Shown: positions 15,927 through 59,404 of the stretch, piece by piece
Numbering within the stretch: the first letter of the stretch is position 1
How the letters are laid out: every line of letters begins with the position of its first letter
From: Octopus vulgaris
Lineage: Eukaryota
NCBI GenBank assembly: GCA_951406725.2
Contig: OX597827.1
Coordinates: 49,414,001-49,478,000, forward strand
DNA length: 64,000 nt
Direction: 5' to 3'
The notes under the pieces: model-generated
What the model was told of the DNA's origin: nothing
The model's database searches: none
Seen by the model: the letters and a program-made list of their open reading frames with translations, nothing else
Position numbers and translations under genes: made by a program

Positions 15927-16020
15927 ATACCATATAAAATATATATATATATATATGTATGTATGTATATACCATATAAAATATATATATATGTATATAC
16001 CATATAAATATATATATATA

Positions 16021-18041
16021 TCGCACTGCTTGAATCCAAAAAATATAACCTCCAACAATGCATGAAGACCCTCATCAATAACCAAAGATCAGCTGAGGAG
16101 AAGTGGGCCATTGAAAAAATCAAACTCAACCCCAAAGTGTTCTTTTCATTTGCGAGGAAACGCAGGGTCACTGTCTCCACTGTAGGCCCTCTAATTGACG
16201 AAACTGGCACTCTCCAAGATAATGCCAAATCCATGGCCGAGATACTGCAGAAACAATACTGCTCTGTTTTCAGCAATCCTGATATGGCCGATCTGGGCTG
16301 TATCAGTGATGTCAACCCCCAACACACTATATCGGACATAACGTTTAGTGCCCCTGATGTCTTAGCGGCGATAAACGAAATAAAACACAATTCAGCAGTA
16401 GGCCCCGATAGGTTCCCTGCTTGTGTCCTGAAGGTGTGTCGACACCAACTTGCATCTCCCCTTGCTAATCTGTGGAGAAACTCACTGGATGCTGGCTATA
16501 TTCCAAAAAACCTTCTGTCCCAGTCTGTTGTCCCAGTTTTCAAAAAGGGAAACAAGTCCCTTGCAGTGAATTACCGTCCGATCTCACTCACCTCTCATAT
16601 CATCAAGGTATTTGAGAGGGTGGTGAGATCTCAAATAACCCAATTTCTGGAAAGCAACAGACGGCTGATCTCCAACCAACATGGGTTCCGTAATGGAAGG
16701 GACTGCCTAACGCAGCTCCTGCACCACTTTGAGGACATTTTGAGAGCTTTGGGAGAGGGCTCCAACACCGATGTCATCTACCTTGATTTCAGTAAGGCCT
16801 TCGACAGGGTCGATCACAAGATCCTATTGAAAAAACTATCCAACATTGGTGTCTCTGGAAAGTTACTGAAATGGATTAAGTGTTTCCTGACAGACAGATC
16901 TCAACATGTTGTAGTTGAAGGGGTAAAATCAAGCCCAGCCAAAGTCAGTAGTGGCGTTCCGCAAGGCACTGTGCTGGGCCCACTTCTTTTCATCATTTAC
17001 ATTAATGACATTAATGACATTAATGACATCATCAAGCACAGCAACATAAAAATCTTTGCAGATGACTCCAAGCTACAGAAGGTCATAAATGAGGCGAGTG
17101 ACCGGACATGCCTTCAGTCAGATCTACTGGCTGTTATCCAATGGGCAGAAAAAAACAATATGCTGCTGAACGAGGATAAATTTGAGCTAATCCACTTTGG
17201 AAAAGAGGATGCCCTGAAACTCCCATACTCCCTTCCTTCAGGTGAAACTCTCACGGCGTCCAACAACATCAGAGACTTGGGAGTAATTGTGGACAACAAC
17301 GTAAGCTGGGCCACTCATATAAACACCAAAGTTGACATGGCCCGCAGAATGTGTTCCTGGATTCTCAGAACTTTCCAGTCGAGAGATATCCACACCATTA
17401 TCCTTCTCTTCTCCACTTTTGCCCGACCCCACCTTGAATACTGTTGTCCACTGTGGTCTCCCCACACAATACAAGGTATCATAAAAGTCGAAGCACCTCA
17501 AAGGGCAATCACAAAAAAGATAGATGGCATGACAGGCCTCGACTATTGGGGTCGACTAGAAAAGCTAAAACTCTATTCTCTCCAACGTCGTCGTGAGCGC
17601 TACATCATCTGCATGATGTGGAAAATATTCCATCAGCATTGCCCAAATGATGTTGGCATCACCTTTAAGGTACATCCAAGGCTTGGGCCCCGTGCCATCC
17701 GCCCAAAACAAAAATCGCACTCTCATCTCATAACAACAAAAACAACAATACGGCACAATTATTTCACCTCAATTGGCCCCGCTCTCTTTAACATTACACC
17801 AAAACACATTAAAACAGAAACTGACCCTATAGGGTTCAAGAAGTCTTTGGACAGATTCCTTCAAGAAATCCCGGATAAACCCCCTACACCCGGATATGTC
17901 TCTGTAAACAATAACTCTCTACTTGAGTGGGCCATAGTGCCCAAATTCTGACTTGAAAGACTTCACCAGGTGGTGCTATTAAGTTAGACATGGCCTGGGC
18001 CAATAATGGCCGAAACCTATCAAAGTATCAAAGTATCAAAG
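16021..18041 (+). mobile_element. 5'-truncated CR1-group non-LTR retrotransposon inserted into a minisatellite
   Basis: Frame open from the left junction; short 3' UTR with GGCCA-ATAA-TGGCC hairpin; terminal (TATCAAAG)x3 at 18018-18041; TA runs on both sides. Confidence 0.92.
16062..17951 (+). CDS. LINE ORF2 reverse transcriptase (endonuclease domain lost by 5' truncation)
   Basis: 629 aa without stops; motifs [56 protein letters not shown]. Confidence 0.95.
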
Positions 18042-18069
18042 TATATATATATATATATATATGTATATA

Positions 18070-20321: not shown

Positions 20322-20361
20322 TATATTCATACACATTCACATATAACTTTGATCATTTAAC

Positions 20362-20696
20362 CTTTTGCTTGTTTCAGTCATTAGACTACGGCCATGCTGG
20401 GGCACAACCATGAGGAATTTTTAGTCGAATGTATTGACCACTAATTTTTAAAGTCTTGTACTTGTTCTAGCGATCTTTTTGCCGTACTGCTAAGTTACGG
20501 GGATGTAAATACACCAGCACCGTTGTCAAGCTGTGGGTGGGGGGAGACAAACACAGAGGCAAAACACACACATAGAAATACATATACGACGGGTTTCTTT
20601 CAGTTTCCGTCAATCAAATCTACTCACAAGGATTTGGTTAGCTCTAGGCTAAATTAGAAGACACTTGCTCAAAGTGCCACGCAGTGGAACTGAACC
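20362..20696 (-). mobile_element. SINE family A, diverged
   Basis: Colinear similarity to 41750-42085. Confidence 0.75.
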
Positions 20697-21211: not shown

Positions 21212-21864
21212 GTAATGGTTTCAAACTTTGGAACTGTCCCAGGAGTTTTTGAAGGGAGAGGAAAGTCTGAAATTTGGCGGAAGGGAATTAGACGATTATA
21301 TCGACTCCCAATGCTCAACTGGTATTATTTCATAGACCTCGAAAGTATGCAAGACAAAGTCGACCTCGGCGGTATTTGAACGCAAAGACAGCCGAAATAC
21401 CTATTTCTTAATTACACACAAGGGGCTAAACATAGAGGGGACAAACAAGGACAGACATAGGTATTAAGTCGATTACATCGACCCCAGTGCGTAACTGGTA
21501 CTTAATTTATCGACCCCGAAAAGATGAAAGGCAAAGTCGACCTCGGCGGAATTTGAACTCACAACGTAATGCAGACGAAATACCTATTTCTTTACTACCC
21601 ACAAGGGGCTAAACATAGAGGGGACAAACATGGACAGACATAGGTATTAAGTCGATTATATCGACCCCAGTGCTTAACTGGTACTTAATTTATCGACCCC
21701 GAAAGGATGAAAGACAAAGTCGACCTCGGCTCGAATTTGAACTCACAACGTAACGGCAGACGAAATACCGCTAAGCATTTCGCCCGACGTGCTAACGATT
21801 CTGCCAACTCGCCGCCTAAGCATTTTGTCAGGCGTGCTAACGTTTCTATTAGCTAGCTGCCTTA
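21212..21864 (-). mobile_element. SINE family B nested/tandem multimer
   Basis: An older copy interrupted by two 183-185-bp body+tail units (21401-21583, 21584-21768) and a head. Confidence 0.85.
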
Positions 21865-23339: not shown

Positions 23340-23950
23340 TCCTGGAAATTAGTTGGAAAGCTCCGAGGAGGAAGACTTCCTGGAAAGTTCCGATGAGAGG
23401 AAGGCTTCTTGGAAAGTTCCGAGGATGGGGACTAAATTACCTGAGAAGTTCCGGGGGAAGACTTCCTGGAACTTTTCTATGCTGGCTACGAAATTACCTG
23501 GAAAAATTTTAAGTGCGGGGAGGATTTCTTGGAAAGTTCCGAGGGTGGGTGCAAAATTACCTGGAAAAGTCCTAAGTTGGGGGGGCTTCCTGGAAAATTC
23601 TGAGGAGGGAACAAAAACTTCCTGGAAAGTTCCGGGGTTTGGGACGAAATTACCTGGAAAAGTTCAAGGACGAGGAAGACTTACTGGAAATTTCAGAGGA
23701 CGGGGAGGAGTTCCTGGAAAGTTCCAAGGAAGTGAAGGAACTTCCTGTAAAGTTCGAGTTTGGGACGGGATTACCTGGAAAAGTCCAAGGAGATTACCCG
23801 GAAACTATGAAGGCAGGAATTCCTGGAACGTTCCGAGGAAGGTGGGACTTCTTAGAAGTCATAGACCTCCTCCCCTTCATTGAAACTTTCCAGGATGTCC
23901 TCCCCTTCCTCTCCTTGAAAGTTCCACGGGGGTGCACTTCCTGGAAAGTT
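23340..23950. repeat. Degenerate ~30-bp tandem repeat with core TTCCTGGAAAGTTCC
   Basis: About 17 units 23340-23860; an inverted unit near 23883-23894. Confidence 0.85.
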
Positions 23951-25962: not shown

Positions 25963-26133
25963 GGAGTGGCTATTTGGTAAGTAGCTTGCTTACCAACCAC
26001 ATGGTTCAGGGTTCATTCCCACTGCGTGGCACCTTGGGCAAGTGTCTTATACTATAGCCTCGGGCCGACCAAAGCCTTGTGATTGGATTTGGTAGACGGA
26101 AACTGAAAGAATCCCGTCGTATATATGTATATG

Positions 26134-26196
<63 letters not shown>

Positions 26197-26393
26197 TTGT
26201 GTGTCTGTGTTTTCTCCCAACATCGCTTGAGAACTGATGGTGGTGTGTTTACGTCCCCGTAACTTAACGGTTCAGCAAAAGAGATTGATAGAATAAGTAC
26301 TAGGCTTACAAAGAATAAGTCCTGGGGTCGATTTGCTCGACTAAAGGCGGTGCTCCAGCATGGCTGCAGTCAAATGACTAGAACCAGTAAAAG
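25963..26393 (+). mobile_element. SINE family A, full length
   Basis: tRNA-like head with A/B boxes, CCTTGGGCAAG box, internal (GT)n, conserved tail ...GCAGTCAAATGACT...AGTAAAAG; many similar copies in the window. Confidence 0.85.
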
Positions 26394-26885: not shown

Positions 26886-27651
26886 TACTCCAGTTCTTGT
26901 AGTGATGATGGTGGAGGATATCGACTCCTTACTTGTTTTTCTAAAATACACCATAAATGTTCAATAATAATGGAGATCTGGGCATTGTGGTGGCCAGATA
27001 TGATGTTCAGCTTCACTAGAATGTTCCTTGTGCCATTCAGTAACAACTTTAGCTGTGTGAAGTGGTGCATTATTATCCTGAAAGATTGCGTTTTCCTCCG
27101 GAACCAGTTCCGCAAACATAGGATGAATTTGATCAGATAAAATACTTAAATATTCCTGACTTTTAATTCTGCCATGAAGGTAAACCATTGGGCCGGCGGA
27201 TTTCCAAGATATAGTTCCCCATCTACCCCAGATCATCACAGACCCTCCGCCATGTTTAACAGTTGGAAGACGTCAGTCAGGGTAAAATGCTTCTTTTGGA
27301 TGTCCCCACATGTATACTCGGCCAGTGGTCGGAAATAAGGTAAGGGATGACTTGTCCGAGAAAATAACATTCTTCCACTGCTCTAGGGACCAATTCTGTA
27401 GGTTTTTAACTCCACTCTAAACGCTTCGCAACATTTGCTTTCGAAAGCACCAATAATTTGACCGCTTTGAAAGTCCAATAGATCTGTCATTTTAATTAAT
27501 TTTAATTACTTTTTTCTAATGATATAGAAAAAAAAACAATTAAGCAAAACTAATAATAAATCAAAGAACAAAAATAAACAAGCCTTAGACAGTTTTATAG
27601 ATATTTGAAAATTATGATGCTGTATGTTTCCATTATTTTGTCCAATCGCTG
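26886..27651 (-). mobile_element. Decayed Tc1-like DNA transposon
   Basis: VIFSDKS, TVKHGGGSVMIWG, FQDNNAPLH, WPPQCPDL, IEHLW; TIR-like end CAGCGATTGGACAAAATAATGGAAAC next to TA at 27652. Confidence 0.85.
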
Positions 27652-28459: not shown

Positions 28460-28616
28460 GCATGCAGGAGCACCGCCTTTAGTCCAACGAATCGACCCCA
28501 GGACTTCTTTGGAAGCCTAGTACTTATTCTATCGGTCCTCTTTTTGCCGAACCGCTCAGTTACGGGGAAGTAGACACGCCAACATCGGTTATCAAGTGAT
28601 GGTGGGGGGCACAAAC

Positions 28617-28712
<96 letters not shown>

Positions 28713-28925
28713 TATGTATGTATGTGTGTGTGTTTGTCCCCCCCCCCACGCACACACACACAACATCGCTTGACATTAGATGCTGGTGTGTTTACGTTCC
28801 CGCAACCTAGCTGTTCAGCAAAATGTGACCGGTAGAATAAAGTACTAGGCTTGGGGTCGATTTGCTCGACTAAAAAGAAAGGTGATGCTCCAGCATGGCC
28901 ACAGTCAAATGACTGAAACAAGTAA
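28460..28925. repeat. Two SINE A 3' halves in inverted orientation around a (TA)n(GA)n run
   Basis: 28460-28598 is the reverse complement of most of 28730-28925. Confidence 0.8.
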
Positions 28926-28989
28926 AAAAAATTAAAAGAATTGTTATTAATAGGCACGGGAGTGGCTGTGTGGTAAGTAGCTTGCTAAC

Positions 28990-30468
28990 GAGCATGCGTC
29001 GAGTTGTTTACTGTGTCAAGTTTTGACTAGGCGGACAGAATCCTTTGAGCTGCTCGCCAGCGGTTTGTTGCCGAGTGGAAAATAATGTATTCGGACCTTA
29101 GCGAGTACGAGCTGTCCACATCTGAGGAGGAGCTCGTTAAGGCCGTGAACAGGATGGACCAACATTTGGAGAAAATGAAGAGTTTTGCTGACGCGGCGGG
29201 AGTGAAGAGAAAGGAAGTGGACCTGACTGAACTGAAGGAGCTGTATAAGATGACACAGAAGGTGGGAAGTGACGTAAAGTTACTACCCCCGAAAACGGTC
29301 ATGGTGAATATGGAAAGGAAAACCATCACCTACAAGGTGCACTCAGTGGAGAGTAGGAGAGTGGAGCAGATGAATATGGAAAAAATAGAAAAAGCTCTCA
29401 AGGGGCTTTCGAACGAAGTAACATACATAGCAAACGGAAGCGGATATGGGACGGTGGTTGTCCAGTTTAAAACAGAGGAGGAGGCGAGGAGGCTGGCAAG
29501 TGCAACCGTAAAAGCTGAGGAACTGGTGCTTCTACCCTCTTATCTTGGAAGAAAAAATTCTAAGGTGAGGGTAGAAAGAATTCCACCTGACATAAAGGTG
29601 GCTTGGGTTGCGGCAGCCGTCCTCGTTGGAAGTGAGGAGGTGACTGTCCTCCAAGCCACAGAGACAGAGGAAAGAAGTTACAAAGGAAAATTACTGGAAA
29701 TGACCATACAAGCGGAGGCGAAGGAGCTGGAAAATTTGGCGGAAACGGTGTCAGTGGGAGAAATGGTACTGAGAGTATGGGTAGAAGGCAGAACCCCGCG
29801 GTGCTTTAAATGTGGCCAAAAAGGCCACATTAGAGCACACTGCCCCCTACAGAAGAAAAAGAGGAAAAAATAGATGAACCAGTTGCGGAGACAAAGAAGA
29901 AAAAAGAGGACGAAGACAAAGACGGACGAAAGGAGGTTGAATGGATAGTAGCAGAGAGCAGAAGTAAGAAGAGGAAGAAAAGAAAGAACACTGAGTGTGA
30001 AATGGTACCCCAGTCCAACTCCATCCCACCCAAGACCACTCAGACCCACCCGCCCCATACAGACACCAGACCCACCCACTCCCTTTCCCCACAAGAAAAA
30101 AAGAAAAAGAAAAAAGAGCAGACACCACAGAATTCAGAAGACCCCTCCCCCGGTGAAAAAGGTTGCGAAAGAAAGTTGTCTTTAAGTGATAGCGAGAATG
30201 GAAAAAAGAAGGACTAGACCAGAGATTAGAGAAGAATTCAGACTCAAAGGCAGCGAGTGGTGTTGCTCAGAGTGGGGTGAGTAGCACACTCGTCATATTT
30301 CATACTTCATTTTCAGATATCATGCATGTTATCATAAACTTAATTTATTTTCTCACGTTCATTTTCATGTCACTCACAGTATCATTTTATTTTTAATTGT
30401 TATATGTCTCCACATGTTTTTGTAGTGTCCCCTCTATGTAATGCCTTTATGGCAAAATAGTTGAAATA
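28990..30468 (+). mobile_element. Complete ORF1-only non-autonomous retroelement (Tx1/L1-type gag knuckle) inserted into a SINE
   Basis: Exact 15-bp TSD AAGTAGCTTGCTAAC at 28975-28989 and 30469-30483, splitting a SINE head. About 95-bp leader, ORF1, U-rich 3' UTR, terminal stem-loop and AATAAA; no RT sequence. Confidence 0.9.
29085..30217 (+). CDS. ORF1/gag-like protein with CCHC zinc knuckle; one frameshift near 29845
   Basis: ORF 29085-29873 contains a possible RRM-like segment (GYGTVVVQFKTEEEARRL) and VEGRTPRCFKCGQKGHIRAHCP. An acidic/basic then Pro-rich tail continues in another frame to TAG at 30217, colinear with the 36-kb homologue, implying a 1-bp loss in the CCCCC run. Confidence 0.8.
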
Positions 30469-30638
30469 AAGTAGCTTGCTAACCAACCACATGGTTCCGG
30501 GTTCAGTCCCACTGCGTGGCATCTTGGGCAAGTGTCTTCTGCTATAGCCTCGGGCCGACCAAAGCCTTGTGAGTGGATTTGGTAGACGGAAACTGAAAGA
30601 AGCCTCGTCGTATATATGTATATATATATATGTATATA

Positions 30639-30694
<56 letters not shown>

Positions 30695-32799
30695 CTGTGT
30701 TTGTCCCCCTAGCATTGCTTGACAACTGATGCTAGTGTGTTTACGTCCCCGTCACTTAGCGGTTCGGCAAAAGAGACCGATAGAATAAGTACTGGACTTA
30801 CAAAAAGAATAAGTCCCGGGGTCGATTTGCTCGACTAAAGGCGGTGCTCCAGCATGGCCGCAGTCAAATGACTGAAACAAGTAAAAGAGAAAAAGAGAAA
30901 GAAAGAGAAAGAGAATAGTATTGATACCTATTTAACTTTAAATTATTCAAAATCACGATATGTTCGTTTTGAATGTCGTGGGGGCATTCAACGTGCCACG
31001 CGCTGTTACTGAACTCGGTACTATGTGACCGGGAAGCAATTTTATTTTTTAAGCCACATAGCCATACCTATTCATATACACATTTAAAAACTTTAGGATT
31101 TCAGAAATTAGAAAACTTACAATACATTAAAAACTGAGGTCGTATCGTGCACCAGAGAGGTCGAACTTCGTCACTTAGAAGTTGCTATGTCCGTCTTCCG
31201 AAATAATATTAAGTTTCAGTGCTATTTTTCCAAAAATAGCTTTTAATCATTCCAACCAAATTTTAATGTATGAACTGCAAATGTGAAGATAAAATCTTCA
31301 ACGGCCAGAAATTAATCAATATGTTTTAGTCAGTAAAATTATGTAGCAGCATATTTTATAAACATAAAAAGAAATTGCTGTGGCTTTTAAACGTTAAAAA
31401 AAAATCGGTTCTTAGCTACCCGATAAGTCAATGTAAAAAGCTAAGAATGTCGTGACATTCAGAATATTAAAAGTGTAATATATCAGAATATAATAAACTC
31501 CAATAAGACATGGTATAAAGAGCAATATTGACATTTCGCTACGTGTTGTATGTAAAATTCTATCCAATGTCTTTTTTCCATATCTTTCCAGTTACGTTCA
31601 AATGCGTAGGAACGTTTTCTTCCTGAAAGAAACTATTAGCTCAACCAAATTAACCTAACTCGGCCAAAAGATAATTAGAGATGAGACAACAGAATTATTT
31701 TAGAACCATTCCTGCAAATTCAGCATGGTTAACACATCAAAATGTAAGATAATACGAAAATTATATTTTTAAAAGGAAACATTTTCACCAAGTAGTCTAA
31801 AAACCAACCAGGGTTACAATACAATGTGAAAGGATTATGAAGTTTAAGAGGAATCATTTTCATTTATAGAATCAAAGAAAAGGGGGTGAAATAAGTGGAG
31901 AAATGAATTCAGTTTCATTGGATGACACACACAGCTTATTCACTTGCTTTGACGCTGGAATGGAGAGGATTCCAACTATTTCGTTTCCTCTAGAAATTCC
32001 CCGACCTCCGAAATTAAAACTCCAGCACTGAGTGTTGTTGACGTTTTCAGCATCCTTTCTTTCGTCTTTGTAGGGAATTCTGTCGGGAATCATAACCAGT
32101 TTCATCGGTAAACTTTAGTATGGGTTACTTATTTTTGATCTTGTTTTAAACAACGTTTTTCAGGTCGATTGTTATACCCTATTTTCTAAATCTGAGAGTG
32201 AGCCATTGAAAGCATGAGGGTGGAAGCATTGTCATCCAGCGTCCCATTTTCTCCAATTCGCCACTGGATCTTTCCACCATCCACATTGGGAACCATTGAT
32301 CCATTCACCACCGTATGCGTCACAATCTATTCCATTCACAGACGGGTTACAGCAACACTCAGCGCATTAGTGATTACTTTAATCTCAATGATTCCCAAAG
32401 TAGGAGACGGGAAGATCCAGGGAGCCGCTGGAGCAAAAGTGAGACGAAAGTCGCGTGACCAAAAGGGAGCGCTGGATGGCCATGCCCACCACACACGCAT
32501 CCACTTTTTAATGTTGCACTCTTCAGATTTAGAAAATAGGAGACGTTTTTATGAACAAACATTGAAGCGTCGAACGATTGGTATTTTAGAAATGAAAGAA
32601 CTCTCGAACTCAGGAGAAGCGCTGTAGAAATAGCCTAAAGGATCGAACAAAATACCCTTATAGGCTGAAAACACGTGGCCAGAAAGCTGCTACAGAGAAC
32701 TGAACTCTGGGACTCACGTTTCGGCTGAGCTAAACAACTCCCGACATTTCTGAAACACCAACCACTCGACATTTCAAGGTTTATAAAAATGTTCTCATA

Positions 32800-33760
32800 T
32801 TCGAAACGTTTTATCCGGTATATGACACCATCTGCAAACCGCTATATGACCATTCTTTTATATGACTTATTGTGCCATCTTTAATACGGCGTATTTCACT
32901 TCATGTAATCCCGAGATGTGCAACATATAGCACCACTTTCAATCCGGCTTATTGAACCACATTTCGTATTAAAGTTCCGTCATTTGCCGAATTAAAGGTG
33001 GTGCCATATGCCGATGTATTCCGGATTTAAGATGGTATAAATATGCCGAATTACAGGTGGTTCAGTATTTTGGATTAAATGGGCGAATTACGCCAGATCC
33101 AGATTAGGAGTGGTAAAATATGTCGGATTACAGGTGGTACAATATACTGCATTGCATGAAATAACATTTACCGGATTTAATTAACGGCGGAAAATTCCGG
33201 ATTAAATATCAGAATATAATAAACTCCAATAAGACATGGTATAAAGAGCAATATTGACATTTCGCTAAATGTTGCATGTAAAATTCTATCCAATATCTTT
33301 TTTCCATAGCTTTCGTTATGTTCAAATGCGCAGGAATATTTTCTTCCTGAACGAAACTTAACTCAACCAAATAATAATTAGAGATGGTACAACAGAATTA
33401 TATTAGAACCATTCCTGCAAATTAAGCATGGTTAACATATCAAAATTTAAGATAATAGGAAAATTATATTGGTAAGAAGAAACATTTTCACCATGTAGTC
33501 TAAAAACCAACCAGAGTACAGGATTAAAAGTCGTTACATATACCGGAATAATGCCGTGGCCATATCCCGCATTAAATAGTCAATACGCCAGATTACGAGC
33601 GGGGAAATATACCTGGTAGAAGGTGGTCATATAGCGGATTAAAGGTTGTACTATATGCCAGATTACTTGTAGAAAAATATACCAGATTGAAGTGGGTTCT
33701 ATATGCTCAATAAAATAAGGAATCATGCCGGAAATGAATGTACCATATGCAGGGCTAAAG
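32800..33760. repeat. Degenerate 20-25-bp repeat array (CCGGATTAAAGGTGGT-like) with an orientation switch near 32970
   Basis: ATCCGG-type units on the left, CCGGATT-type units on the right; interrupted by 33206-33514. Confidence 0.6.
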
Positions 33761-35120
33761 ATAGTACAGTACACCCCTCAGTCGGTTTTAGTTTGCCGTG
33801 GTGTTTGTGTACTTGCACATTGAGATTAGTAGAGAATGAAAATGTTTTTCTAGGGGAGCGCGTGAAAATGATTAACACAGAATTTTTATTTACTGCACTT
33901 GGTATTTCCTGCGTCGGTATTTTGATGTAAAATAACAACGACAATTATACGCAGGGGAAGAGATGTGATGTATATAAATTCTAACAAAGAAATTGATGTT
34001 TATGGAAGTAGCCAAAAACATTTTTAAATTAAGAAACTACTTGTAACCACCAGCCAGTTTAGCATCGATAATGGTATCTATTTCATATACATCAAGAGTT
34101 TAAGAGTAAAGGTTCTCCAGTTTATGCGGAAAACAGCCATTCAATTCTGCTAAAAGCCCAACTACAAATTAGATATTTGTAGGAAATCTTATTAACTAAT
34201 TTTGCTCTGATTAACAGATTATACAAATGTCGACAATGGACAATAACGAAAAAAAAAAAGCAATATCTGCAAACGATATTTAAAGAAATATTACTTTTTT
34301 TTTCCTTCGGCAAAATAGAAATTTTATGATTATTCCAAAAGGATAATTCAGCCGCCTTTTTTCTTGGGGTCGAGAGACGGTATAGGTTTTAAAAGATCTG
34401 AAAATGACAGGCTTACAAAAGGAGAATAGTTTTTTTGTTTCCATATTATTTTGTTCTGTTACGTTCCATTAGTTTCATTTTTTTATCAGATATATTACTG
34501 TTCTTCATTCGAACGGGTCGTGGCAGGAGAACAGAATAGACGGACGGCCAGTCCGATTGGTTTCGATTTCAAGTAGCTAGCGATTGAAGAGCCACAAGAA
34601 AATAAAAATTATATCAAAATTTTAGTAATAAAAACACGAGGAAACTGACGTGAAGGAAACCAATTGATTAAAAGCAAGACAGAAAATGTCATTAAAAAGC
34701 ATAAAATAATAAATTTCAAGTTGTAAAAAAACAAAAAGAAAAATTCTGCATTCATTACTGTTGAAAATGTTTACAATAAATTTCAAAAGAAATATTTCCC
34801 AGTAAAAAGATTATGATATTTAAATATGTGATTGAGTGGGTGACATTCTTCTCAGACAATAGAGTTTAAAATAAAACAAAATGCGTTAACTACCCTTCAG
34901 ACATCTCTTCCGTCGACTGTGAAAGGCTAACATCTGCAAACAGACACTTTTTATTTTTTTAATGTTAACATTCCGACTAAGTTCCGTTGACTTAGCAGCA
35001 GCAACAAATCTCAATGCGTCACACGTTCAGATTTCTTTATTTTAGCACACGTATACATATAAAATGCAGAAAGCTTAGGATGAGTTCAAATTGTTTGTAT
35101 GCTGTGTGTGTGAATGAGAG

Positions 35121-35838
35121 TATTTCTTTATTACCCACTAGGGGCGACATAGAGGGGACACTACAAGACATTGGGGACATAGAACATTATAAAAATAAAA
35201 GTATGTAAGATGAAATTTTGAAAATGATAATATGAAAGTGATGCTAACGGTCCCATTCCGCTAGCACCACTTACCTGTCCTTCATAACCTATCATCCACT
35301 GTCATCTCCAATCAGAAGCCCTATATTCACTATCATTCTCTCAGTTCTCTCTTCATACTCCTTCACTACCACATCCATAAATCTCACCTTAGTCACCTTC
35401 ACACCCTCATTTAAAAACAACTCTCCATAATTGCATCCATCAGTCCCTTTGGCACTACTGCATAACTCCCATCTACTCTCTCATACCATGAATAATTATT
35501 TATAATGTCTTTCAAATTTTCAGTGTCCTCCTTTTTCACGAAACATAGAATATGGGGCTTGGGATCTTGTTTACTCTCTTGTGTGTCTGTGTTATTTTTT
35601 TGTTTTCTTGTAGGCGGGGAGTGGGTGGAATAACTGTTTGCAGGGGGAGGATGGGACTCAGAGGGTGCGGGTGGGTTGGGGTTCAATATAGTTCAATTTT
35701 CTTCTTTTTCTTTTCTTTCTTGCATCTTCCCATTTGGTCTGGGCTTCCTCCTCCTCAGTCTCTTCCTCAACTTGTTTCTGCTCCACCTCCTCCTTTTCCT
35801 GGTTCACAGTTTCCTTTTGTGGGGGAGGGCAGTAAGCG
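35121..35838 (-). mobile_element. 5'-truncated copy B of the ORF1-only family, directly downstream of copy A
   Basis: Starts at AYCPPPQKE, has YSWY..YAV domain with frameshifts; tail tgtcccctctatgtcgcccctagtgggtaataaagaaata. A+B together are flanked by a 16/17 TSD (35104-35120 and 36633-36649). Confidence 0.85.
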
Positions 35839-35839
35839 A

Positions 35840-36632
35840 TTTCTTTATTACCCACTAAGGGGCTACGAAGAATGGCGGACATAACAAAACATGGGGACAT
35901 AGAACATTATAATTAAACTTTATGAAAATGAATTGTTAAACGAAAAAAAATGATAAAATGAAAGCGATACCAACGGCCCCGTCCGTCAGCATCACTTACC
36001 TGTCCTTTGTTTTTCATAGTCACTTGAATGTTCTTTGCCAATACGAATAAATTCCATATCCATTCTTACTCCGAAATACTCATTCATATTTTCCACGAAT
36101 TCATCGCTCATTCTTATATCTTTCACCTCCCAATTCTCCCTTTCACACCTCTCCATAAACTCACCTATGTTCTTCTTTTCAATCACAGCATACCTAGTCT
36201 CTCCAACATCATACCATTTATACTCTTCCATTAGACTTTTAACTTCCCTCTGTTCAGTCATAGTACAAATGTACGGCCTGGGTTCGATTTCAATCTCTTG
36301 TGTGAGTGTATTCTTTTTTTTCTTTTTGTTTTCTTGTTGGGGGGGAGCGGGTGGGTTCAATGTCTGCATGGATAGGGTGGGACTCAGAGGGTGTGGGTGG
36401 TTTTGGGGTAGATTGGAGTTCCATATTATTTTCTTTTCCACGTATTCTTCTCTTCCTCTTACTTCCAGCTTCCTTCCATTTCTGTGTATTCTCTTCCTCT
36501 GTTTCCTTCTCCTCTGGTTTCTGCTTCTCTCTCTCTGGTTCGGAATCCATTTCTTTCCCTGGGGGAGGGCAGTAAGCTCTTATGTGGCCCCTCAGGCCAC
36601 ACTTATAGCATCTTGGTGCTCTGCCCTCCACC
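35840..36632 (-). mobile_element. 5'-truncated copy A of the ORF1-only family
   Basis: Encodes VEGRAPRCYKCGLRGHIRAYCPPP, a charged/Pro-rich linker and a YKWY..YAV domain; ends ...gccccttagtgggtaataaagaaa. Confidence 0.85.
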
Positions 36633-37639
36633 GTGCGTGTGAATGAGAGAGTAATTTCTATAATCAGTGTTTCTTTGCACGTGCTTGGCTGCAAATTTTG
36701 AAACCACAACAATTAAATGGATGAAATAATTGGACCATTCTATTTCATCAAAAAATGTTTTTAATCATAAAACACTCTGAATGAGGTAAGAGAGTTGGTT
36801 GCAGTTTCATTCCCAGATAGGTGAGCATTTAATCAGTCTTATTATTTTAATATCTTAACGCGGCGAGCTGGCAGGACCGTTAGCATGCCGAGCGAAATGC
36901 TTAGAAGTATTTCGTCTGCCACTACGTTCTGAGTTCAAATTCCGCCGAGTGCCCTTAATGCTCAAATTCGTTTCATGTGTTTATCGACCCCTTCGAGTCA
37001 ATAATAACCACTTTACCAGCCCTTGTCCCTGACAGACTGTCTAAATTAAAAGAAGAAACCACAGGATGCTCATGCCTTTAACGGCTTTGATCTGCATGAT
37101 GCGGGAGTGAGAAACAACTACAGCTACAATAGTATCGAACCCAAGAAGAGCACCTCTGGGAAGTTGTTCATGTAGTTAAACATAACCGAATTTCCTTAAA
37201 GTAAACGACCTTTCGGCTTCAAACAAAAGAAAAACACGTTGGAAAAATCTACATAAAAGAAACGAAAAAATACGAAGCGTTCAGATCGGTTACGTCTTTC
37301 ATCATAATTCATCATAACAATACTAAGGACTAAACAACAACAGCTAAACTTTAAGCTTAGGGCATCTATCGGTTAAAGTCGGGCAAGGTTAACAATGAAT
37401 CTGCACCAATATGCGTGGTTTAGCGGTTAGGGTATTTAGCCCAAGATATTAAGGTAGTGCTGTCCTTGAGCAAGACACTTCATTTCACATTACTCCAGTC
37501 CACTCAGCTGGCAAAAATGAGTTGTATCTATAATTGAAAGGGGCCAGCCCTGTCGCCTTCTGTGCCACGCTGAATCTCCCTCAGAGCTACATTAAGGGCA
37601 TGCGTGTCTGTGGTGTGCTCAGCCACTTGCAAGTTAGTT

Positions 37640-38993: not shown

Positions 38994-39667
38994 TGTTCTC
39001 GTTAGCCATCCCGAAAGAATGAAATACAATGTTGAACTCGGTAGGATTCGCACTCAGAGGACGACAGAAAGAATGCCGCAAGGCAGTCTATCCAGCGCTG
39101 TCGCTGCTTTCTAATGAGCAGAACGCAGTTGTTTTCTTCTTCTTCTTCTTCCAGTCAGGACTCACGCCATTAGCCACAAAGAATAATCTCTAATTCGAGC
39201 CTACACTAAGCTACTAAGAATGCGTGTGGCAACATGAAGATCCACTCACCACACGTGATAGACTGGCGGTTGCACGGGCGCGAAAGCTACGTTGTTATCC
39301 TCATTCCGTAAACGGTGGCTTTTAACGGGTGATGCTTCAGTATGGCCGCAGTCAAATGACTGAAACAAGTAAAAGACTAAAAGAATGATTATTAATGATA
39401 ATGATACCTATTTAACTTTAAATTATACTGACTCACGATATGTTCGTTTGTAATGTCGTGGGGGCATTCAACGTGCCACGCGGTGTTACTGAACTCGGTA
39501 CTATGTGACCGGGAAGCAATTTTTATTTTTTAAGCCACATAGCCATACCTATTCATATACACATTAAAAAATTTTAGGATTTCAGAAATTAGAATACTTG
39601 CAATACATTAAGGACTGAGGTCGTATCGTACACTTGAGAGGTCAAAGTTCGTCACATAGAAGTTGCT

Positions 39668-40218
39668 GCAGCTGAATCCATGATAAAGATGATACCGCCA
39701 GCTGGACTCACAGAGGAAAGTAAGGCATGTTTTTACTGTACGGTTGCAATATTGAAAGAATGCGTCTGGAGAACGAGAATGGAAGGTGCGGTGAAAGGGT
39801 CTTTCATCTCAGGCCCCGGTTTGCTGACCTACTTCAAATACCATCTGAAGAGCAAGATGGGACTGTAGAGGAGGACCCTGCCACCGAGAGTATTCGAGAA
39901 ACGATGGAAAGATGTGATGAGAAAGGTGGGTGTTAGTAACCCAGCTTGATCATTGATGAAAGGAAAAGATCGTTGCTGGGTTTTATAGGCTGCCGGGTTT
40001 GATCCTTTAACCTTTGTGTTCGTCTTTCTTTCTTTGTGTTAGTTTTAATAAAAAATAAAAAAAAGTTTCTAGTTAATGGAAATTAAACGGTATATAAAAT
40101 ACTTTTTATGTAAATTTTTAATACTGAAATCATTCAAACTCATGTAAGATCTTTGTCCTTTGTTTGCCCTGTATTGTAACATTCTATGTAAGATCACCAT
40201 GATCATAACAAATGATAC
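39668..40218 (+). mobile_element. 5'-truncated Tx1/L1-like LINE 3' end
   Basis: 15-bp TSD CAC(A/T)TAGAAGTTGCT at 39653-39667 and 40219-40233; empty site present in the paralogue near 31173. Translation KECVWRTR...FEKRW resembles Tx1 ORF2 C-termini; U-rich 3' UTR. Confidence 0.7.
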
Positions 40219-40907
40219 CACTTAGAAGTTGCTATGTCCGTCTTCCAAAATAATATTAAGTTTCAGTACTATTTTTCCAAAAATAGCTTTTAATCAGTCC
40301 AACCAAATTTTAATGTATAAACTGCAAATGCGAAGATAAAGTCTACAACGGCCTGAAATTAATCAATATGTTTTAGTCCATTTTCAGTCATGTGGGGGTG
40401 TTCAGGATTCCCCCATAACACTCTTTGGGTTTGACACTCCTATAAACTGTATGGTGCCTGTTCTAATGCCAGGGTCACAGTAAAAAGGACCCTGTACATA
40501 CTAGGAAGGGCACCCAGCCATAGAAACAATGCTTTAATAGACAGCGGAGCAGAGCACAACATGATCCTTAGCCCCTTCAGATCCTGTTAAACCACCCAAC
40601 CCATGCCAGCATGGAAAACAAACATTAAAAGACGATGAGGAATAGAATGAATTACAGGGTTGCTGGTTAAAATCCTATTGTATTTTTAGGAATTGTATAA
40701 AAAAGAAACATTTAAGATATTTTGGGTATTGTACAAGAATAAGCAAGTTTTTACTCATGGACTTTAACAAAACCTTATATGGATCCTAAAAGTCATATGG
40801 ACCCCAATTGAGAACCATCCTGGGGTACAGAGGGTTCGCAATCTAGACAAGGGTCTGAAAGTTTACCACACCATAGTGGGTTACACCATGGTTCCTCTGC
40901 TTTGTGG

Positions 40908-41335: not shown

Positions 41336-41744
41336 ACTTTAAACCAGACAATTTTTCTCTCAAAAAAAAAGCTTTATTTTGACATCGATATATAAATAAT
41401 ACTTAGAATATCCATTAAGAGAGTAAGTGATCAGTCAACGGGTGAAGAGTTTTCTATGGTAGATTTTTTCTTTATTTGTTTTTTTTTTGTGCGTCGGTGG
41501 GGTGGGATGCTGACGGCAGTATTCTTATTATTGTTGTTGTTTAAAGTAGAGCTTTTGTTGTTATTGTTTAAAGTAGAGAGTTTTTGTTGTTTTTTTTTCC
41601 AGCTGACCAAAATTAAATTGGTTTCATTTTGGAAATATCAAAAGCTCACATGTCATTCTTTATTCAGATTTGTTCACCCAAATAACGCTTAAATTTCGTT
41701 TTGTTGTTCTTGTTCTGGTTTCAGTTTTTCTTTTTTTTTCTTTT

Positions 41745-41931
41745 ACTCTTTTACTTGTTTCAGTCATTTGACTGCGGCCATGCTGGAGCACCGCCTTTAG
41801 TCGAGCAAATCGACCCCGGGACTTATTCTTTGTAAGCCCAGTATTTATTCTATCAGTCTCTTTTGCTGAACCGCTAATGACGGGGACGTAAACACACCAG
41901 CATCGGTTGTCAAGCAATGCTAGGGGGACAT

Positions 41932-41973
<42 letters not shown>

Positions 41974-42128
41974 ACGACAGGCTTCTTTCAGTTTCCGTCT
42001 GCCAAATCCACTCACAAGGCTTTGGTCGGCCCGAGGCTATAGCAGAAGACACTTGCCCAAGATGCCACGCAGTGGGACTGAACCCAGAACCATGTGGTTG
42101 GTTAGCAAGCTACTTACCACACAGCCAC
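41745..42128 (-). mobile_element. SINE family A
   Basis: Near-identical reverse complement of 30469-30890. Confidence 0.88.
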
Positions 42129-42329: not shown

Positions 42330-42661
42330 CTTGGCAGAAACGTTGGCACGCCGGGCGAAATGTTTAGCGATATTTCGTCTGCCTTTGCGTTCTGAGTTCA
42401 AATTCCGCCGAGGTCGACTTTGCCTTTCACCCTTTAAAATAAGGCGGCGAGCTGGCACGCCGGACGAAATGCTTAGCTGTATCTCGTCTGTCGTTACGTT
42501 CTGAGTTCAAATTCCGCCGAGGTCGATTTTGCCTTTCATCCTCTCGGGGTCGATTAAATAAGTACCAGTTTCGCACTGGGGTCGATATAATCGAATTAAT
42601 CCGTTTGTCTGTCCTTGTTTGTCCCCTCTATGTTTAGCCCCTTGTGGGTAGTAAAGAAATA
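42330..42661 (+). mobile_element. SINE family B, partial head plus full copy
   Basis: GGCGGCGAGCTGGCA head, GCCTTTCATCCT.TCGGGGTCGAT core, tail GCCCCTTGTGGGTAGTAAAGAAATA. Confidence 0.85.
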
Positions 42662-44944: not shown

Positions 44945-45840
44945 ATTCCAGTTTCAAATTCTGTCGAGGTCAACTTTGCTTTTTATTCATTTTGGAGTCG
45001 ATAAAATACAAAATAAAGTAGCAGTCAAGTACTGGGACAGACAATATAGACTAACTCCCATCTTTCAAGATTGTTGGCCTTGTACCTATATCAGAAATCA
45101 TCCTTGCTGTACCTCTTCTGATTCTTAACATTTTGAATTTAAATTTTATTGAGGTCGACTTTACCTTTCATTCTTTCGCAGTCAATAAAAGAAAACGCCA
45201 GTCAAATACTGACTTATATTTTGCAGTATCGGTTTCGGACTGCCAACATTTGAAATCATGTTTATTATTACTGAGGCTGCGAAGGCGGCGAACTTTGCAG
45301 AAACGTTAGCATTTTGCCGGACGAAATGCGTAGCCGTAAAATTTCGTCTGTCGTTACGAATCAGTTCAAATTCCGCCAAGGTCGACTTTGCCTTTCATCC
45401 TTTCGGGGTCGATACAATTTAAGTACCAGTTACGCACTGGGGTCGATGTAATCGACTTAATCCCTTTGTCTGTCCTTGTTTGTCCTCTCTGTGTGCCAAC
45501 ATTTAGCCCATATGTGGGTATTATTAGGGAAACGGCGAAGGAGGCAAGCTGACAGAAACGTTAGCGTGCGGGACAAAATGGTTAGCGGCATTTCGTCTAC
45601 TTTGACGTTTCGAGTTCAAATTCCACCGCGGCCGACTTTGCTTTTCATCCTTTCGGTGTCAACAGTACCAGTTAAGCACTCAGGTCGATATAATCGACTT
45701 ATTCCCACCCACCACAAAATTGCTGGCCTTGTGCATTTCATCGTTTCGGGGTCGATAAAATGAGCACCAGTTAAAAACCGGAGTTGATATAATCGATTAA
45801 CCCCCTCCCCTCAAACTGTTCAAGCCTTCTACCTGTTGTA
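44945..45840 (+). mobile_element. Cluster of about five same-orientation SINE B copies/fragments
   Basis: Recurrent GAGGTCGACTTTGCCTTTCAT core near 44965, 45150, 45380, 45630 and 45735. Confidence 0.75.
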
Positions 45841-50307: not shown

Positions 50308-51262
50308 CAGGGTGCTCAGGCTAAAGGTGATGATCTCTTATTTCTCCTTTTTCTGGGAACAGCTTGCTGCATTGGTGGACAATTAACAGCGTTGGAGAGC
50401 ATAAAGGTTAAAGTTAGGTGATATGGCGGACTGGAAGCCATTTGAATATTGGGAAAGAGTTACCAGTATCGAGGTGATGTTGAAATGCTGACATCATGGC
50501 TGCTACTCAATTCTCTGTGAACATCGTAAAGGCTGTATGATGTGGCATTTAAGACGGCTACAAAGGAGACTATGAAGCTGTGACCAGCTGGAATGGATAG
50601 TGCAGGCGTTTTAACTGCGTCCACACACCAGAATTCATCCAAGAACTGCAGGACAAGGGAATGGAAAATCCGAGCAACGAAATCTCGGCTTTGGCAAGAT
50701 GGGTGCTGGAGTCACTACCATGAAGCTGGCTCTGAATGCAGACTTTCACTACCACTTGTACAAGAGGTGCAAGGGAAAAATTCTGACAGCCAAGGCCAAG
50801 AAGAACCACTTGACAAATGCAAGGAAACTCCTGAACAATCTAAGGCATCCTGTTGAGCCTATCTGGTTCTTCTCAGATGAAAAGAACTTCTGTCTGTACC
50901 AGTTGCACAACACCCAGAACAACAGGTGGCTTTCCTACAATATATGCAATGGCTCATCTATCATGAAAACCAAGTTCCCCCAAACTGTGATGGTCTTTGG
51001 GTGTGTCTCCAGGGAGGGTGACATCATGCTGACCCACATCTTTGAACAAGTCCTTAGGCTCAGTTCAGATGGCTATGTGAAGCTACTGAAAACTATGGTC
51101 AAAATCTGGCTGGAGAAGGTTGCTGCTGAAAGGCCATATGCATGGCAGCAGGATTTGGCTCCTTGCCATACCTCCAGAAAGAGTCAGAAGTGGTTATCAG
51201 AGAATCACTATGACTTCACCAGCCCAAATTTCTGGCTTCCTAATTCCCCTGATCATAATCCT
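50308..51262 (+). mobile_element. Decayed DD37D/maT-type Tc1-mariner transposon, 3'-truncated (FAM184A intron)
   Basis: TA|CAGGGTG start; FFSDEKNF, NTQNNRW, VMVFGCVS, WQQDLAPCH, PNSPDHNP motifs. Confidence 0.8.
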
Positions 51263-51990
51263 TTTTCCCATGAAGCTCCCTTCTCTGTTGTGGTTGAGCT
51301 TTTTCCCTTTTATCAAGCCATTGTTTACAATGTTTAACATTTCGATAGAAGATCCATTTTACGTCTATCCGAAGAGGGTGAAATGAGTTTGCGAGAATGG
51401 AAAGAAGAGCAGATGTCAACTCAGGATTTGCGGTTGCTTTCGGACAATTCATCTGGCACCCATTTACTAAGTTTAGGAACCTTTCCAAGTTGTTGAAGAT
51501 GACAATGAACAGTTGTATGGTTTGAACTAAGCTTTATTGCCAATTCTTCAACGGATAATGCAGGATTTTCTTCAAGTAATGCCTCAAGGAGCTTATCATC
51601 AAACTCAACTGGACATCTTGTTTGATCTTCATCTTCAAGGCTGAAATCTCCACTTCTTAATTTTGCAAACCATCTTCTGCAAGTTCTTTCATTGAAGCAT
51701 TCTTTCCCATAAACTGAGTGTATGTTTCGAGTTGCTTCGGCAGCAGAGTTTCCTTTTTTTATAATCATAAAGCATTATGTGCCTCAAATGCTCTTTGGAT
51801 ACTTCCATGTTAGAAAGGGTTTTAATCAAAAAAATTTTAATTCTATTATTCTGTAAAATAATAATTAGTTTAAATGTACACAAATGCATAAAAATAATTT
51901 TTAATTCCATTAGACATTCTCTAAAATACTATTAAATTTCATTCAATTTTAAAAAAGGTAAAATCGGACAGAACTTATAGGATGACCTCA
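51263..51990 (-). mobile_element. Decayed mariner (DD34D) 5' half
   Basis: MEVSKEHLRHIMLYDY, frameshift, then ATRNI..VYG..RRWF..RSGDFSLED, KWVPDEL and KWIFYRN; TIR-like end adjoining TA at 51991. Confidence 0.88.
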
Positions 51991-55027: not shown

Positions 55028-55349
55028 CTAATTTATATATAAAATATAAATCAAATTCAGATATATGAGAACCTTCCATATCGGCTTCTCTCTATTTTCA
55101 CTCAGCTCAAATGCACCACATGGAAACTACTTTCCTCATCGTATTATGTGGTAATGACAAATTAGACAGACAAACCACATCCCTGCCCAGGTTAGAGACA
55201 AATGTTTGTGAATTTCTAAGTGCAAATATTTCCAAGGGAATGGAAAGGAAATGTACAACAACCTGGGATCAAGCACTGGATTATCAATCTTACCCAGGGA
55301 CAAACTACAGTCAGGTCATTTCTTGTGTATATTTCCTTTTAAATCTATA

Positions 55350-55583
55350 TATTTCTTTACTGCCCACAAGGGGCTAAACACAGAGGAGACAAACAAGGAC
55401 AGACAGAGGGATTAAGTCGATTACATCAACCCCAGTGTGTAACCGGTACTTAATTTATCGACCCCGAAAGGATGAAAGGCAAAGTCGACCTCGGCAGAAT
55501 TTGAACTCAGAACATAACGGCAGATGAAATACGGCTACGCATTTCGCCTGGCATGCTAACGTTTCTGCCAGCTCGCTGCCTTT
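55350..55583 (-). mobile_element. SINE family B, full length (intronic)
   Basis: Reverse complement of 42442-42661. Confidence 0.85.
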
Positions 55584-59029: not shown

Positions 59030-59404
59030 TTTTTACTTGTTTCAGTCATTTTGACTGCAGCCATGCTGGAGCACCACCTTTAATCGAGCAACTCGACCCC
59101 AGGTCTTATTCTTTGTAAGCCCAGTACTTATTCTATCGGTCTCTTTTGCTGAACCGCTAAGTGACGGGGACATAAACATACCAGCATCGGTTGTCAAGCA
59201 ATGCTAGGGGGACAAACACAGACACACAAACATACACGCACATATATATAAATACATATATACGACAGGCTTCTTTCAGTTTCCGTCTACCAAATCCACT
59301 CACAAGGCTTTGGTCGGCCCGAGGCTATAGTAGAAGACACTTGCCACACAGTGGGACTGAACCCAGAACCATGTGGTTGGTAAACAAGCTACTTACCACA
59401 CAGC
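59030..59404 (-). mobile_element. SINE family A (intronic)
   Basis: Matches 41745-42128 with a small deletion. Confidence 0.85.

What the first reader, a model, noticed from the sequence alone, without database searches (positions are those of the whole stretch)
35121..35182. ORF1-only elements and SINE family B share the same 3' tail
Seen: copy B ends TGTCCCCTCTATGT-C-GCCCCTAGTGGGTAATAAAGAAATA and SINE B (42621-42661; also 21401, 21584, 55350) ends TGTCCCCTCTATGT-TTA-GCCCCTTGTGGGTAGTAAAGAAATA. The 29-kb element has TGTCCCCTCTATGT followed by TGCC-TTTAT-GGCA, a different sequence with the same 4-bp stem and 5-nt loop. Known: stringent LINEs recognise a 3' stem-loop that partner SINEs copy. 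Inference: a protein-coding parasite and a tRNA-derived SINE use one LINE RT.
Basis: partly seen in the sequence, partly recalled or inferred. Interest (0 to 1): 0.8.

Follow-up and report, generated by a model that had tools for sequence, protein, structure and literature searches.

The report
Octopus half-LINE and SINE share tail
In octopus DNA, a repeated element that encodes only an RNA-packaging protein and an abundant short non-coding repeat end in the same 40 bases, which likely lets both borrow the copying enzyme of a third, not yet identified jumping gene.

Summary
Confirmed. The window is octopus DNA. Three ORF1-only elements (two predicted RRMs plus one CCHC knuckle, no RT) carry 13-18 bp target-site duplications. 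They share their 3' end with SINE B: 37 of 40 aligned bases for copy B, and 0 of 500 shuffles score as high. It is not a local chimera. The ORF1-only 3' UTRs align with each other well upstream of the SINE match, and high-depth contigs from public runs cover the ORF1-stop junction and the UTR-plus-tail. The SINE also occurs with a different, older tail, so it likely acquired this one by tail exchange. Three corrections. The 4-bp terminal hairpin is not better than chance in the SINE. A stronger 15-bp hairpin at the ORF1 stop is confined to the ORF1-only elements. Copy A is likely a younger insertion nested in B. No RT partner was found; Tx1 is the best inference. 'One RT' is unproven, since the 29-kb element has a different loop. 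It works like HAL1, HeT-A or Ag-Sponge combined with a stringent SINE-LINE pair; I found no report of this in cephalopods or Tx1.

The parts
35121..35160 (-). Shared 3' tail of ORF1-only copy B (14-mer, 4-bp hairpin, AATAAA, terminal GAAATA)
   Evidence: loose ends at 35121 in 41, 31 and 60 contigs of three runs with low agreement, i.e. a fixed end with many flanks
35121..35837 (-). ORF1-only copy B, 3' part (decayed ORF1 C-terminus, 3' UTR, tail); includes one copy of the 18-bp repeat at 35820-35837
   Evidence: near-identical pieces (2-4 differences over 145-400 nt) in runs labelled as two other organisms
35236..35272 (-). 15-bp RNA hairpin at the ORF1 stop / start of the 3' UTR of B
   Evidence: z -5.8, 0 of 200 shuffles; the 6 differences from A all keep pairing
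35838..36559 (-). ORF1-only copy A, 5'-truncated, likely a young insertion nested in B; ORF1 stop at 35992; tail 35838-35882
   Evidence: 18-bp direct repeat at 35820-35837 and 36560-36577; contig with 0 differences over 35956-36081 at depth 4313 against 16.9 for the flank in the same run
35962..35997 (-). 15-bp RNA hairpin over the ORF1 stop of A
   Evidence: z -4.4, 0 of 200 shuffles
36560..36636 (-). 5' remnant carrying the CCHC knuckle (inferred 5' end of truncated B), with the second copy of the 18-bp repeat
   Evidence: zf-CCHC E=0.018; loose ends behind 36632 in 19-30 contigs per run continue ORF1 upstream
35108..35120 (.). 13-bp target-site duplication, 3' copy (partner at 36637-36649)
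36637..36649 (.). 13-bp target-site duplication, 5' copy
28990..30468 (+). ORF1-only element E29, inserted in the head of SINE A; 15-bp TSD at 28975-28989 and 30469-30483; ends GAAATA
   Evidence: 8 runs hold half or more of its sampled words
29085..30217 (+). ORF1 of E29: two predicted RRMs and one CCHC knuckle, then a charged low-complexity part; frameshift near 29860
   Evidence: Pfam RRM_3 E=0.0012 (below cut-off), zf-CCHC E=0.0003; model pLDDT 90.5; best Foldseek hits are tandem-RRM proteins
30253..30293 (+). Long hairpin in the E29 3' UTR, different sequence, similar position
   Evidence: z -4.2, 0 of 200 shuffles
30426..30468 (+). E29 variant tail (same 14-mer, different stem and loop, GAAATA end)
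42443..42661 (+). SINE B copy with the shared tail (42620-42661)
21585..21817 (-). SINE B copy with the shared tail
21402..21584 (-). SINE B partial copy in tandem; tail with broken stem
55350..55580 (-). SINE B copy with the shared tail; 12-bp TSD with one mismatch (55338-55349 and 55581-55592)
45282..45523 (+). SINE B copy with a degraded version of the tail

Best explanation
These are amplified ORF1-only non-LTR retroelements whose last 40-50 bases are shared with SINE B, and both likely use that tail to be copied in trans by the ORF2 (endonuclease/RT) of an unidentified LINE family, most likely of the Tx1 clade. Shown: one ORF1 with no ORF2 between stop and tail, TSDs of 13, 15 and 18 bp, 5' truncation, a fixed GAAATA end, a shared tail, and two tail versions of the SINE. 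Inferred: (1) an ancestral LINE lost ORF2 and kept ORF1 and its 3' end; (2) the ORF1p packages its own RNA and may help recruit the partner's ORF2p, as proposed for HeT-A; (3) ORF2p binds the tail and primes reverse transcription at a genomic nick; (4) an older SINE swapped its (ATT)n-ending tail for this one by template switching, and that version then expanded; (5) copy A inserted later into B and joined at the homologous position.
For: Tail identity and shuffles. ORF1-only UTRs align with each other over about 150 nt (A-B) and 80 nt (E29-B), while SINE contigs leave the alignment at 35160. A depth-206 contig spans UTR plus whole tail (35121-35238, 15 differences) and another spans 35124-35281; a depth-4313 contig crosses A's ORF1 stop with 0 differences. 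TSDs. Type I ORF1 fold (definition in PMC4120745 and PMC5203782, passages). SINE bodies with the shared tail are 87-98% alike (5 copies); those with the other tail are 73-82% alike (6 copies). Octopus sinensis is listed with 103 Tx1 clusters and 0 L2, L2-2, Rex1 or Nimb (PMC10294476 Fig. S12; columns read from page layout). RTE has a single ORF (PMC9115989, passages); that R4, Hero and CRE lack a type I ORF1 is recalled.
Against: No RT-encoding element with this tail was found. The only RT in the window (16008-17951) ends in a different repeat, and no whole genome was available. The terminal hairpin is not significant in the SINE and shows no two-sided covariation. Loops differ between families. 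Type I ORF1 also occurs in I, Jockey, R1, L2 and some CR1 elements, and CR1 is common in Octopus, so Tx1 is reached by elimination and resemblance. Only 1 of the 4 SINE B loci checked has a clear TSD. Contig depth is not a copy number, and run X1 or X4 may be the window's own source.
Confidence: 0.7

Rival explanations
1. Related tails, different enzymes: SINE B and the B/A subfamilies use one ORF2, while E29 and other subfamilies use sister LINEs that read different loops. This refines the best explanation rather than replacing it.
For: E29 has a different stem and loop and only 76-82% tail identity to the SINE. ZfL2-1 and ZfL2-2 discriminate mainly by the loop. The ORF1 family is very diverse.
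Against: The 14-mer and the GAAATA end are kept in E29, B and the SINE, and may be the real determinant.
Confidence: 0.45
2. Reverse direction: ORF1 transcripts captured the tail of the abundant SINE and so gained access to the SINE's partner RT.
For: The SINE tail is very abundant (depth at 35117-35173); such template switches are known.
Against: The tail is more diverged among ORF1-only subfamilies (71-90%) than among SINE copies (86-100%). It is continuous with the ORF1-only UTR, and the SINE has an older alternative tail. The ORF1-only copies A and B keep AATAAA, while 3 of 4 SINE tails have AGTAAA.
Confidence: 0.1
3. The mobilising RT is not the ORF1 donor: the tail belongs to an ORF1-less LINE (RTE, R4/Dong, CRE, or an ORF2-only element), and the ORF1-only elements form a split system with it.
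For: No RT or endonuclease domain in the 27 proteins and the 50 alignment members scanned, and no hit among longer proteins. These clades are abundant in Octopus.
Against: ORF1 and ORF2 are normally separate ORFs, so protein searches would not show a fusion. One unnamed ORF1 homolog (P0118, 861 aa; cluster member P0153) lies on a 6159-nt contig, which leaves room for an ORF2 (DNA not seen).
Confidence: 0.12
4. Local chimeras or chance: individual ORF1 fragments were fused to SINE ends by recombination, or the match is low-complexity noise.
For: The tail's upstream part is T/G-rich; SINE copies are dense in the window.
Against: 0 of 500 shuffles reach the score; two subfamilies carry the full tail inside their own TSDs; multi-copy contigs join UTR and tail.
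Confidence: 0.03

Closest known systems
ORF1-only non-autonomous LINEs: HAL1 (L1 clade), HeT-A (Jockey clade), Ag-Sponge (CR1 clade) (PMC5786205, PMC5753468; passages)
   Same: One ORF1p, no RT, LINE-type ends, amplified as families, presumed trans-mobilisation.
   Different: Type I ORF1 with a single knuckle rather than HAL1's L1-type ORF1; GAAATA end rather than poly(A); not telomeric here; probable Tx1 origin, a clade not in that list; tail shared with a SINE.
Stringent SINE-LINE pairs such as UnaSINE1/UnaL2 and ZfL2-1/2 (PMC3747384 Table 1; PMC4176376)
   Same: Shared last 40-50 nt, small possible stem-loop, short terminal repeat unit.
   Different: The visible tail partner is itself non-autonomous. 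The 58-pair table lists no cephalopod and no Tx1 tail. The stem-loop is weak and untested.
SINEU / Tx1-Mar of crocodilians (PMC4494074, passages and section 16)
   Same: A SINE inferred to be moved by Tx1; insertion into other repeats.
   Different: There the link rests on shared targets, age and shared 5' heads, not a shared 3' tail. No clear target consensus here.
Octopus tRNA-derived SINEs (OK, OR1, OR2; 'tRNA-Core' and 'tRNA-Deu' in PMC8967140, passages)
   Same: SINE B is probably one of these abundant families; the Deu-like look of its body is recalled, not tested.
   Different: I could not obtain their consensus sequences, so the family name is open. I found no stated source for their tails.

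Membership tests
ORF1-only non-autonomous LINE (HAL1/HeT-A/Ag-Sponge kind) | Encodes an ORF1p and no ORF2 | tested here: met
   The stop is followed by 150-250 nt and the tail in all three copies; RRM-RRM-CCHC; no RT
ORF1-only non-autonomous LINE (HAL1/HeT-A/Ag-Sponge kind) | Amplified in that form, not a one-off deletion | tested here: met
   High-depth contigs cross the ORF1 stop and the UTR-tail; A and B share the stop-UTR junction
ORF1-only non-autonomous LINE (HAL1/HeT-A/Ag-Sponge kind) | TPRT marks (TSD, 5' truncation, fixed 3' end, no LTR) | tested here: met
   TSDs of 13, 15 and 18 bp; loose ends at 35121 and 36632
ORF1-only non-autonomous LINE (HAL1/HeT-A/Ag-Sponge kind) | Traceable to an autonomous parent LINE | not testable with these tools
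   No genome held; scans 26, 27, 32 and 43 brought no octopus loci
HAL1 proper | L1 type II ORF1 (Transposase_22) and poly(A) end | tested here: not met
   No Transposase_22 hit; CCHC present; ends in GAAATA
Tx1 clade | RT phylogeny | not testable with these tools
   No linked RT found
Tx1 clade | Type I ORF1 (RRM plus CCHC) | tested here: met
   not exclusive to Tx1
Tx1 clade | Target-site preference | tested here: inconclusive
   E29, A and B targets share no obvious consensus; GAAATA followed by GGTATTTC recurs in SINE clusters
Stringent SINE-LINE pair | Shared 3'-terminal sequence | tested here: met
   37 of 40 bases, 0 of 500 shuffles; shared with the ORF1-only element, the LINE itself not seen
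Stringent SINE-LINE pair | Conserved 3' stem-loop | tested here: inconclusive
   It can form in 6 of 7 tails, but z is about 0 in the SINEs and there are no two-sided changes
Stringent SINE-LINE pair | Short terminal repeat unit | tested here: inconclusive
   Single GAAATA in the window; one contig joint suggests a repeated unit (table 5c)
Stringent SINE-LINE pair | ORF2p binds the tail and needs it | not testable with these tools
   Needs binding and retrotransposition assays
tRNA-derived SINE | tRNA-related head with A and B boxes | tested here: inconclusive
   Box-like motifs and complementary ends seen by eye; ARAGORN 0 and no Rfam tRNA hit
Deu/Nin-domain SINE | Central Deu/Nin domain | not tested
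   Resemblance recalled only; motif searches of four papers' supplements found nothing, and SINEBase supplements could not be read

The most novel reading that the evidence does not exclude
Octopods carry a long-lived radiation of ORF1-only retroelements with no cis-linked RT. They work as one half of a split retrotransposon with an ORF1-less RT element through a common tail, and they donated that tail to one of the dominant octopus SINEs, triggering its expansion.
Probability: 0.1. Interest if true: 0.75.

Novelty: new variant of a known kind. Interest (0 to 1): 0.42.

Why it matters
SINEs make up about 40% of octopus transposable-element content and look like an octopus-specific expansion (PMC8967140, passages), yet I found no partner LINE named for them. 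The shared tail is a direct handle for finding the enzyme behind one major family, and the two tail versions show how it may have become active again. If the partner is Tx1, this would add that clade to those that give ORF1-only derivatives and tail-sharing SINEs, and show stringent recognition in a relative of L1. The 15-bp hairpin found only in the coding elements is a testable difference between coding and non-coding passengers of the same machinery.

Tried and rejected
No whole genome was held. Tail-pattern scans of viral and prokaryote contigs gave 0 matches. The metagenome scan with ORF1 gave 29 loci that match only around the zinc knuckle; these were treated as unrelated and not used. 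P0118 in viral contigs gave none. Searches for longer ORF1-RT fusions gave none, which is weak evidence, and one search covered only 1508-4305 aa. No RNA holder was listed among the runs; this is no evidence on expression. Two runs do not cover the flank at 36656-36760; this was not used. The window's RT (16008-17951) was rejected as partner because its tail is unrelated. My first reading of A+B as one template-jump insertion was dropped in favour of nesting, because of the perfect 18-bp repeat and the age difference; it is not excluded. A's C-terminus showed no significant match to P0006. In one search two of the eight alternative-tail SINE entries were probably false. One search recomputed with six: it dropped 56814, 22418 and 45777 and added 23290. 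Earlier findings of this scan returned nothing. Literature searches found no description of this family or pairing. Repbase, Dfam and Ohshima & Okada 1994 could not be consulted and may already hold these elements. Supplement motif searches were incomplete: files 25-33 of PMC10294476 were not searched and long lines may have been cut; file 1 of PMC4758252 and of PMC4824008 was not searched.

Full report
Setting. The window is repeat-rich animal DNA. The ORF1 of the 29-kb element found 4 homologs. Of 14 family proteins looked up, 9 carry an organism name, and all are octopods: Octopus sinensis, O. vulgaris, O. bimaculoides and Argonauta hians. No whole genome was available, so genome-wide statements rest on contigs of four public runs laid on 35060-36760.

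The observation. Copy B ends at 35121 on the minus strand. Its last 40 bases match the four intact SINE B tails at 34-37 of 40 aligned positions, and none of 500 shuffles reaches the alignment score. Copy A carries the same tail with a small insertion. E29 shares the 14-mer and the final GAAATA but has another stem and loop; taken alone its match to the SINE is borderline, while its match to B is clear. The quoted SINE string is exact in 2 of 4 intact copies.

The coding elements. E29 spans 28990-30468 inside the head of SINE A, with a 15-bp TSD. Its ORF starts at 29085, at the same position as two homologs, has one frameshift near 29860, and stops 250 nt before the end. Pfam gives zf-CCHC and a sub-threshold RRM. 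An AlphaFold model from a 50-sequence alignment has mean pLDDT 90.5, and its best PDB matches are tandem-RRM proteins. Atlas neighbours are CCHC proteins and ZCCHC3-like two-RBD proteins, as leads only. This is the type I ORF1 layout (PMC4120745, PMC5203782; passages). A profile search gave 246 representatives at E up to 1e-10, some of them mere zinc-knuckle repeats. None of the 27 proteins or 50 alignment members scanned showed an RT or endonuclease family (one search displayed 25 of 27 families).

A and B. One 13-bp TSD encloses both, and a perfect 18-bp repeat flanks A. In one run A matches contigs of depth 4313-4736 with 0 differences over 126 nt and 3 substitutions plus 4 gaps over 280 nt, against a flank depth of 16.9. 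B differs from most of its relatives at many positions, yet near-identical low-depth pieces of it occur in runs of two other organisms. I read this as an older truncated B later hit by a young A, which joined at the homologous position; a single template-jump event is less likely but not excluded. Loose ends at 36632 continue ORF1 upstream, so the truncation is real.

Is the tail native? Yes. A and B align over about 150 nt from the ORF1 stop to the end, and E29 and B over about 80 nt, whereas the SINE matches only the last 40-60 nt. In the runs, 26 contigs leave the reference at 35160 with SINE sequence. Between 31 and 60 contigs in three runs end at 35121 in unrelated flanks. A depth-206 contig covers UTR plus complete tail, and a further contig covers 35124-35281. 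Depth over A's tail is of the same order as over its ORF. Depths are not copy numbers, and the best runs may include the window's source.

Direction. The SINE B head and body occur in the window with two tails, switching right after the same body motif. The five copies with the shared tail have bodies 87-98% alike; six with an (ATT)n-ending tail are 73-82% alike. The shared tail is more diverged among ORF1-only subfamilies than among SINEs. The SINE therefore likely took the tail from this LINE-derived lineage, either from the ORF1-only RNA or from its unseen parent. B is the closest match.

RNA structure. The terminal 4-bp hairpin is the predicted minimum in 6 of 7 tails. It is no better than shuffles in the SINEs, is broken in one copy, and shows no two-sided change, so it stays a hypothesis; the invariant sequence may matter as much. 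By contrast, a 15-bp hairpin over the ORF1 stop in A and B has z of -4.4 and -5.8. All 6 differences between them keep pairing, which random substitutions would do with probability 0.0005-0.03 depending on the transition share. E29 has an equally strong hairpin of different sequence at a similar place (z -4.2). The SINE lacks it, so it is probably not needed for RT recognition; a role in translation or 3'-end formation is a guess.

Which enzyme? Not found. The RT at 16008-17951 ends in an unrelated repeat. Martelossi et al. list for O. sinensis CR1 125, RTE 148, Tx1 103, Ingi 8, unknown 31, Hero 5, R4 89, CRE 48, and none for L2, L2-2, Rex1 or Nimb (PMC10294476 Fig. S12; columns read from layout and consistent with main-text passages). 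Among these, Tx1 is the clade associated with type I ORF1 (PMC5203782), though a CR1 subgroup also has it. I put Tx1 at about 0.6. Since L2 proteins discriminate close tails by the loop (PMC4176376, outline and passages), one RT for all three tails is uncertain.

Comparison and novelty. ORF1-only LINE derivatives are known from the L1, Jockey and CR1 clades (PMC5786205, passages), and SINE-LINE tail sharing is textbook. Table 1 of PMC3747384 has no cephalopod or Tx1 entry. The crocodilian SINEU-Tx1 link rests on shared targets, age and 5' heads. Ten literature searches found no description of this family, but Repbase, Dfam, SINEBase sequences and the 1994 octopus SINE paper were out of reach, so prior deposition is quite possible. 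Other papers seen as passages only: PMC4824008, PMC5804259, PMC5753468, PMC4758252, PMC9115989, PMC8967140, PMC3531059, 10.1101/2023.05.16.540928.

Verdict. A real, well-supported feature that combines two known arrangements in a new setting. Interest 0.42.

Noticed in passing
window 21282-21862 (-): Two shared-tail SINE units sit inside the head of an older-tail SINE, each followed by GGTATTTC with no TSD. The same letters lead the loose-end consensus beyond the tail in two of three runs, suggesting frequent self-insertion or tandem formation at this site; GAAATA and TATTTC are complementary.
   Followed up: partly
window 35270-35278 (-) and 35995-36003 (-): A perfect splice-donor consensus (CAG/GTAAGT) lies at the ORF1 end in both A and B; in A the stop overlaps an ATG (TGATG) at the base of the long hairpin.
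   Followed up: no
window 36124 and 35839 (tables 5 and 5c): One contig joins a tail with an extra terminal repeat unit to the inside of an A-type element, a possible second self-insertion.
   Followed up: no
run X1 over window 35858-36598: Summed depth over copy A is about 10,000 times the flank in this run, against about 300-1,800 times in run X4 of the same organism label; unexplained (library type or a large array).
   Followed up: no
window 16008-18045 (+): 5'-truncated RT element, CR1-like by recalled resemblance, 647-aa open frame with RVT_1, ending in a short tandem repeat inside a (TA)-rich array.
   Followed up: partly
window 41738-42128, 59031-59404, 25966-26393, 20353-20696, 28461-28988, 30469-30887: SINE A family, about 380 nt with an internal microsatellite and clear box-like motifs; a CORE-like centre is recalled, not tested.
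   Followed up: no
proteins P0003, P0010, P0035, P0054, P0098: Octopus gene models fuse this ORF1 to other domains (C2H2 zinc fingers, LDL-receptor repeats, Helitron helicase); probably annotation chimeras, possibly exonisation.
   Followed up: no
protein P0153 (cluster of P0118): An 861-aa ORF1 homolog on a 6159-nt unnamed contig, long enough to hold an ORF2; a candidate autonomous relative whose DNA could not be fetched.
   Followed up: partly
window 51421-51774 (-), 26961-27272 (-), 50615-51337 (+): Tc1/mariner transposase remnants (HTH_48 E=4.5e-14; weak DDE_3; the third by resemblance only).
   Followed up: no
window 30919-33517 and 39399-40378: An unclassified repeat with internal duplication (31480-31814 and 33206-33517) and 92-95% copies at 39399-39667 and 40219-40378.
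   Followed up: no
window 23345-23930: GC-richer degenerate tandem array with long open frames on both strands; not classified.
   Followed up: no
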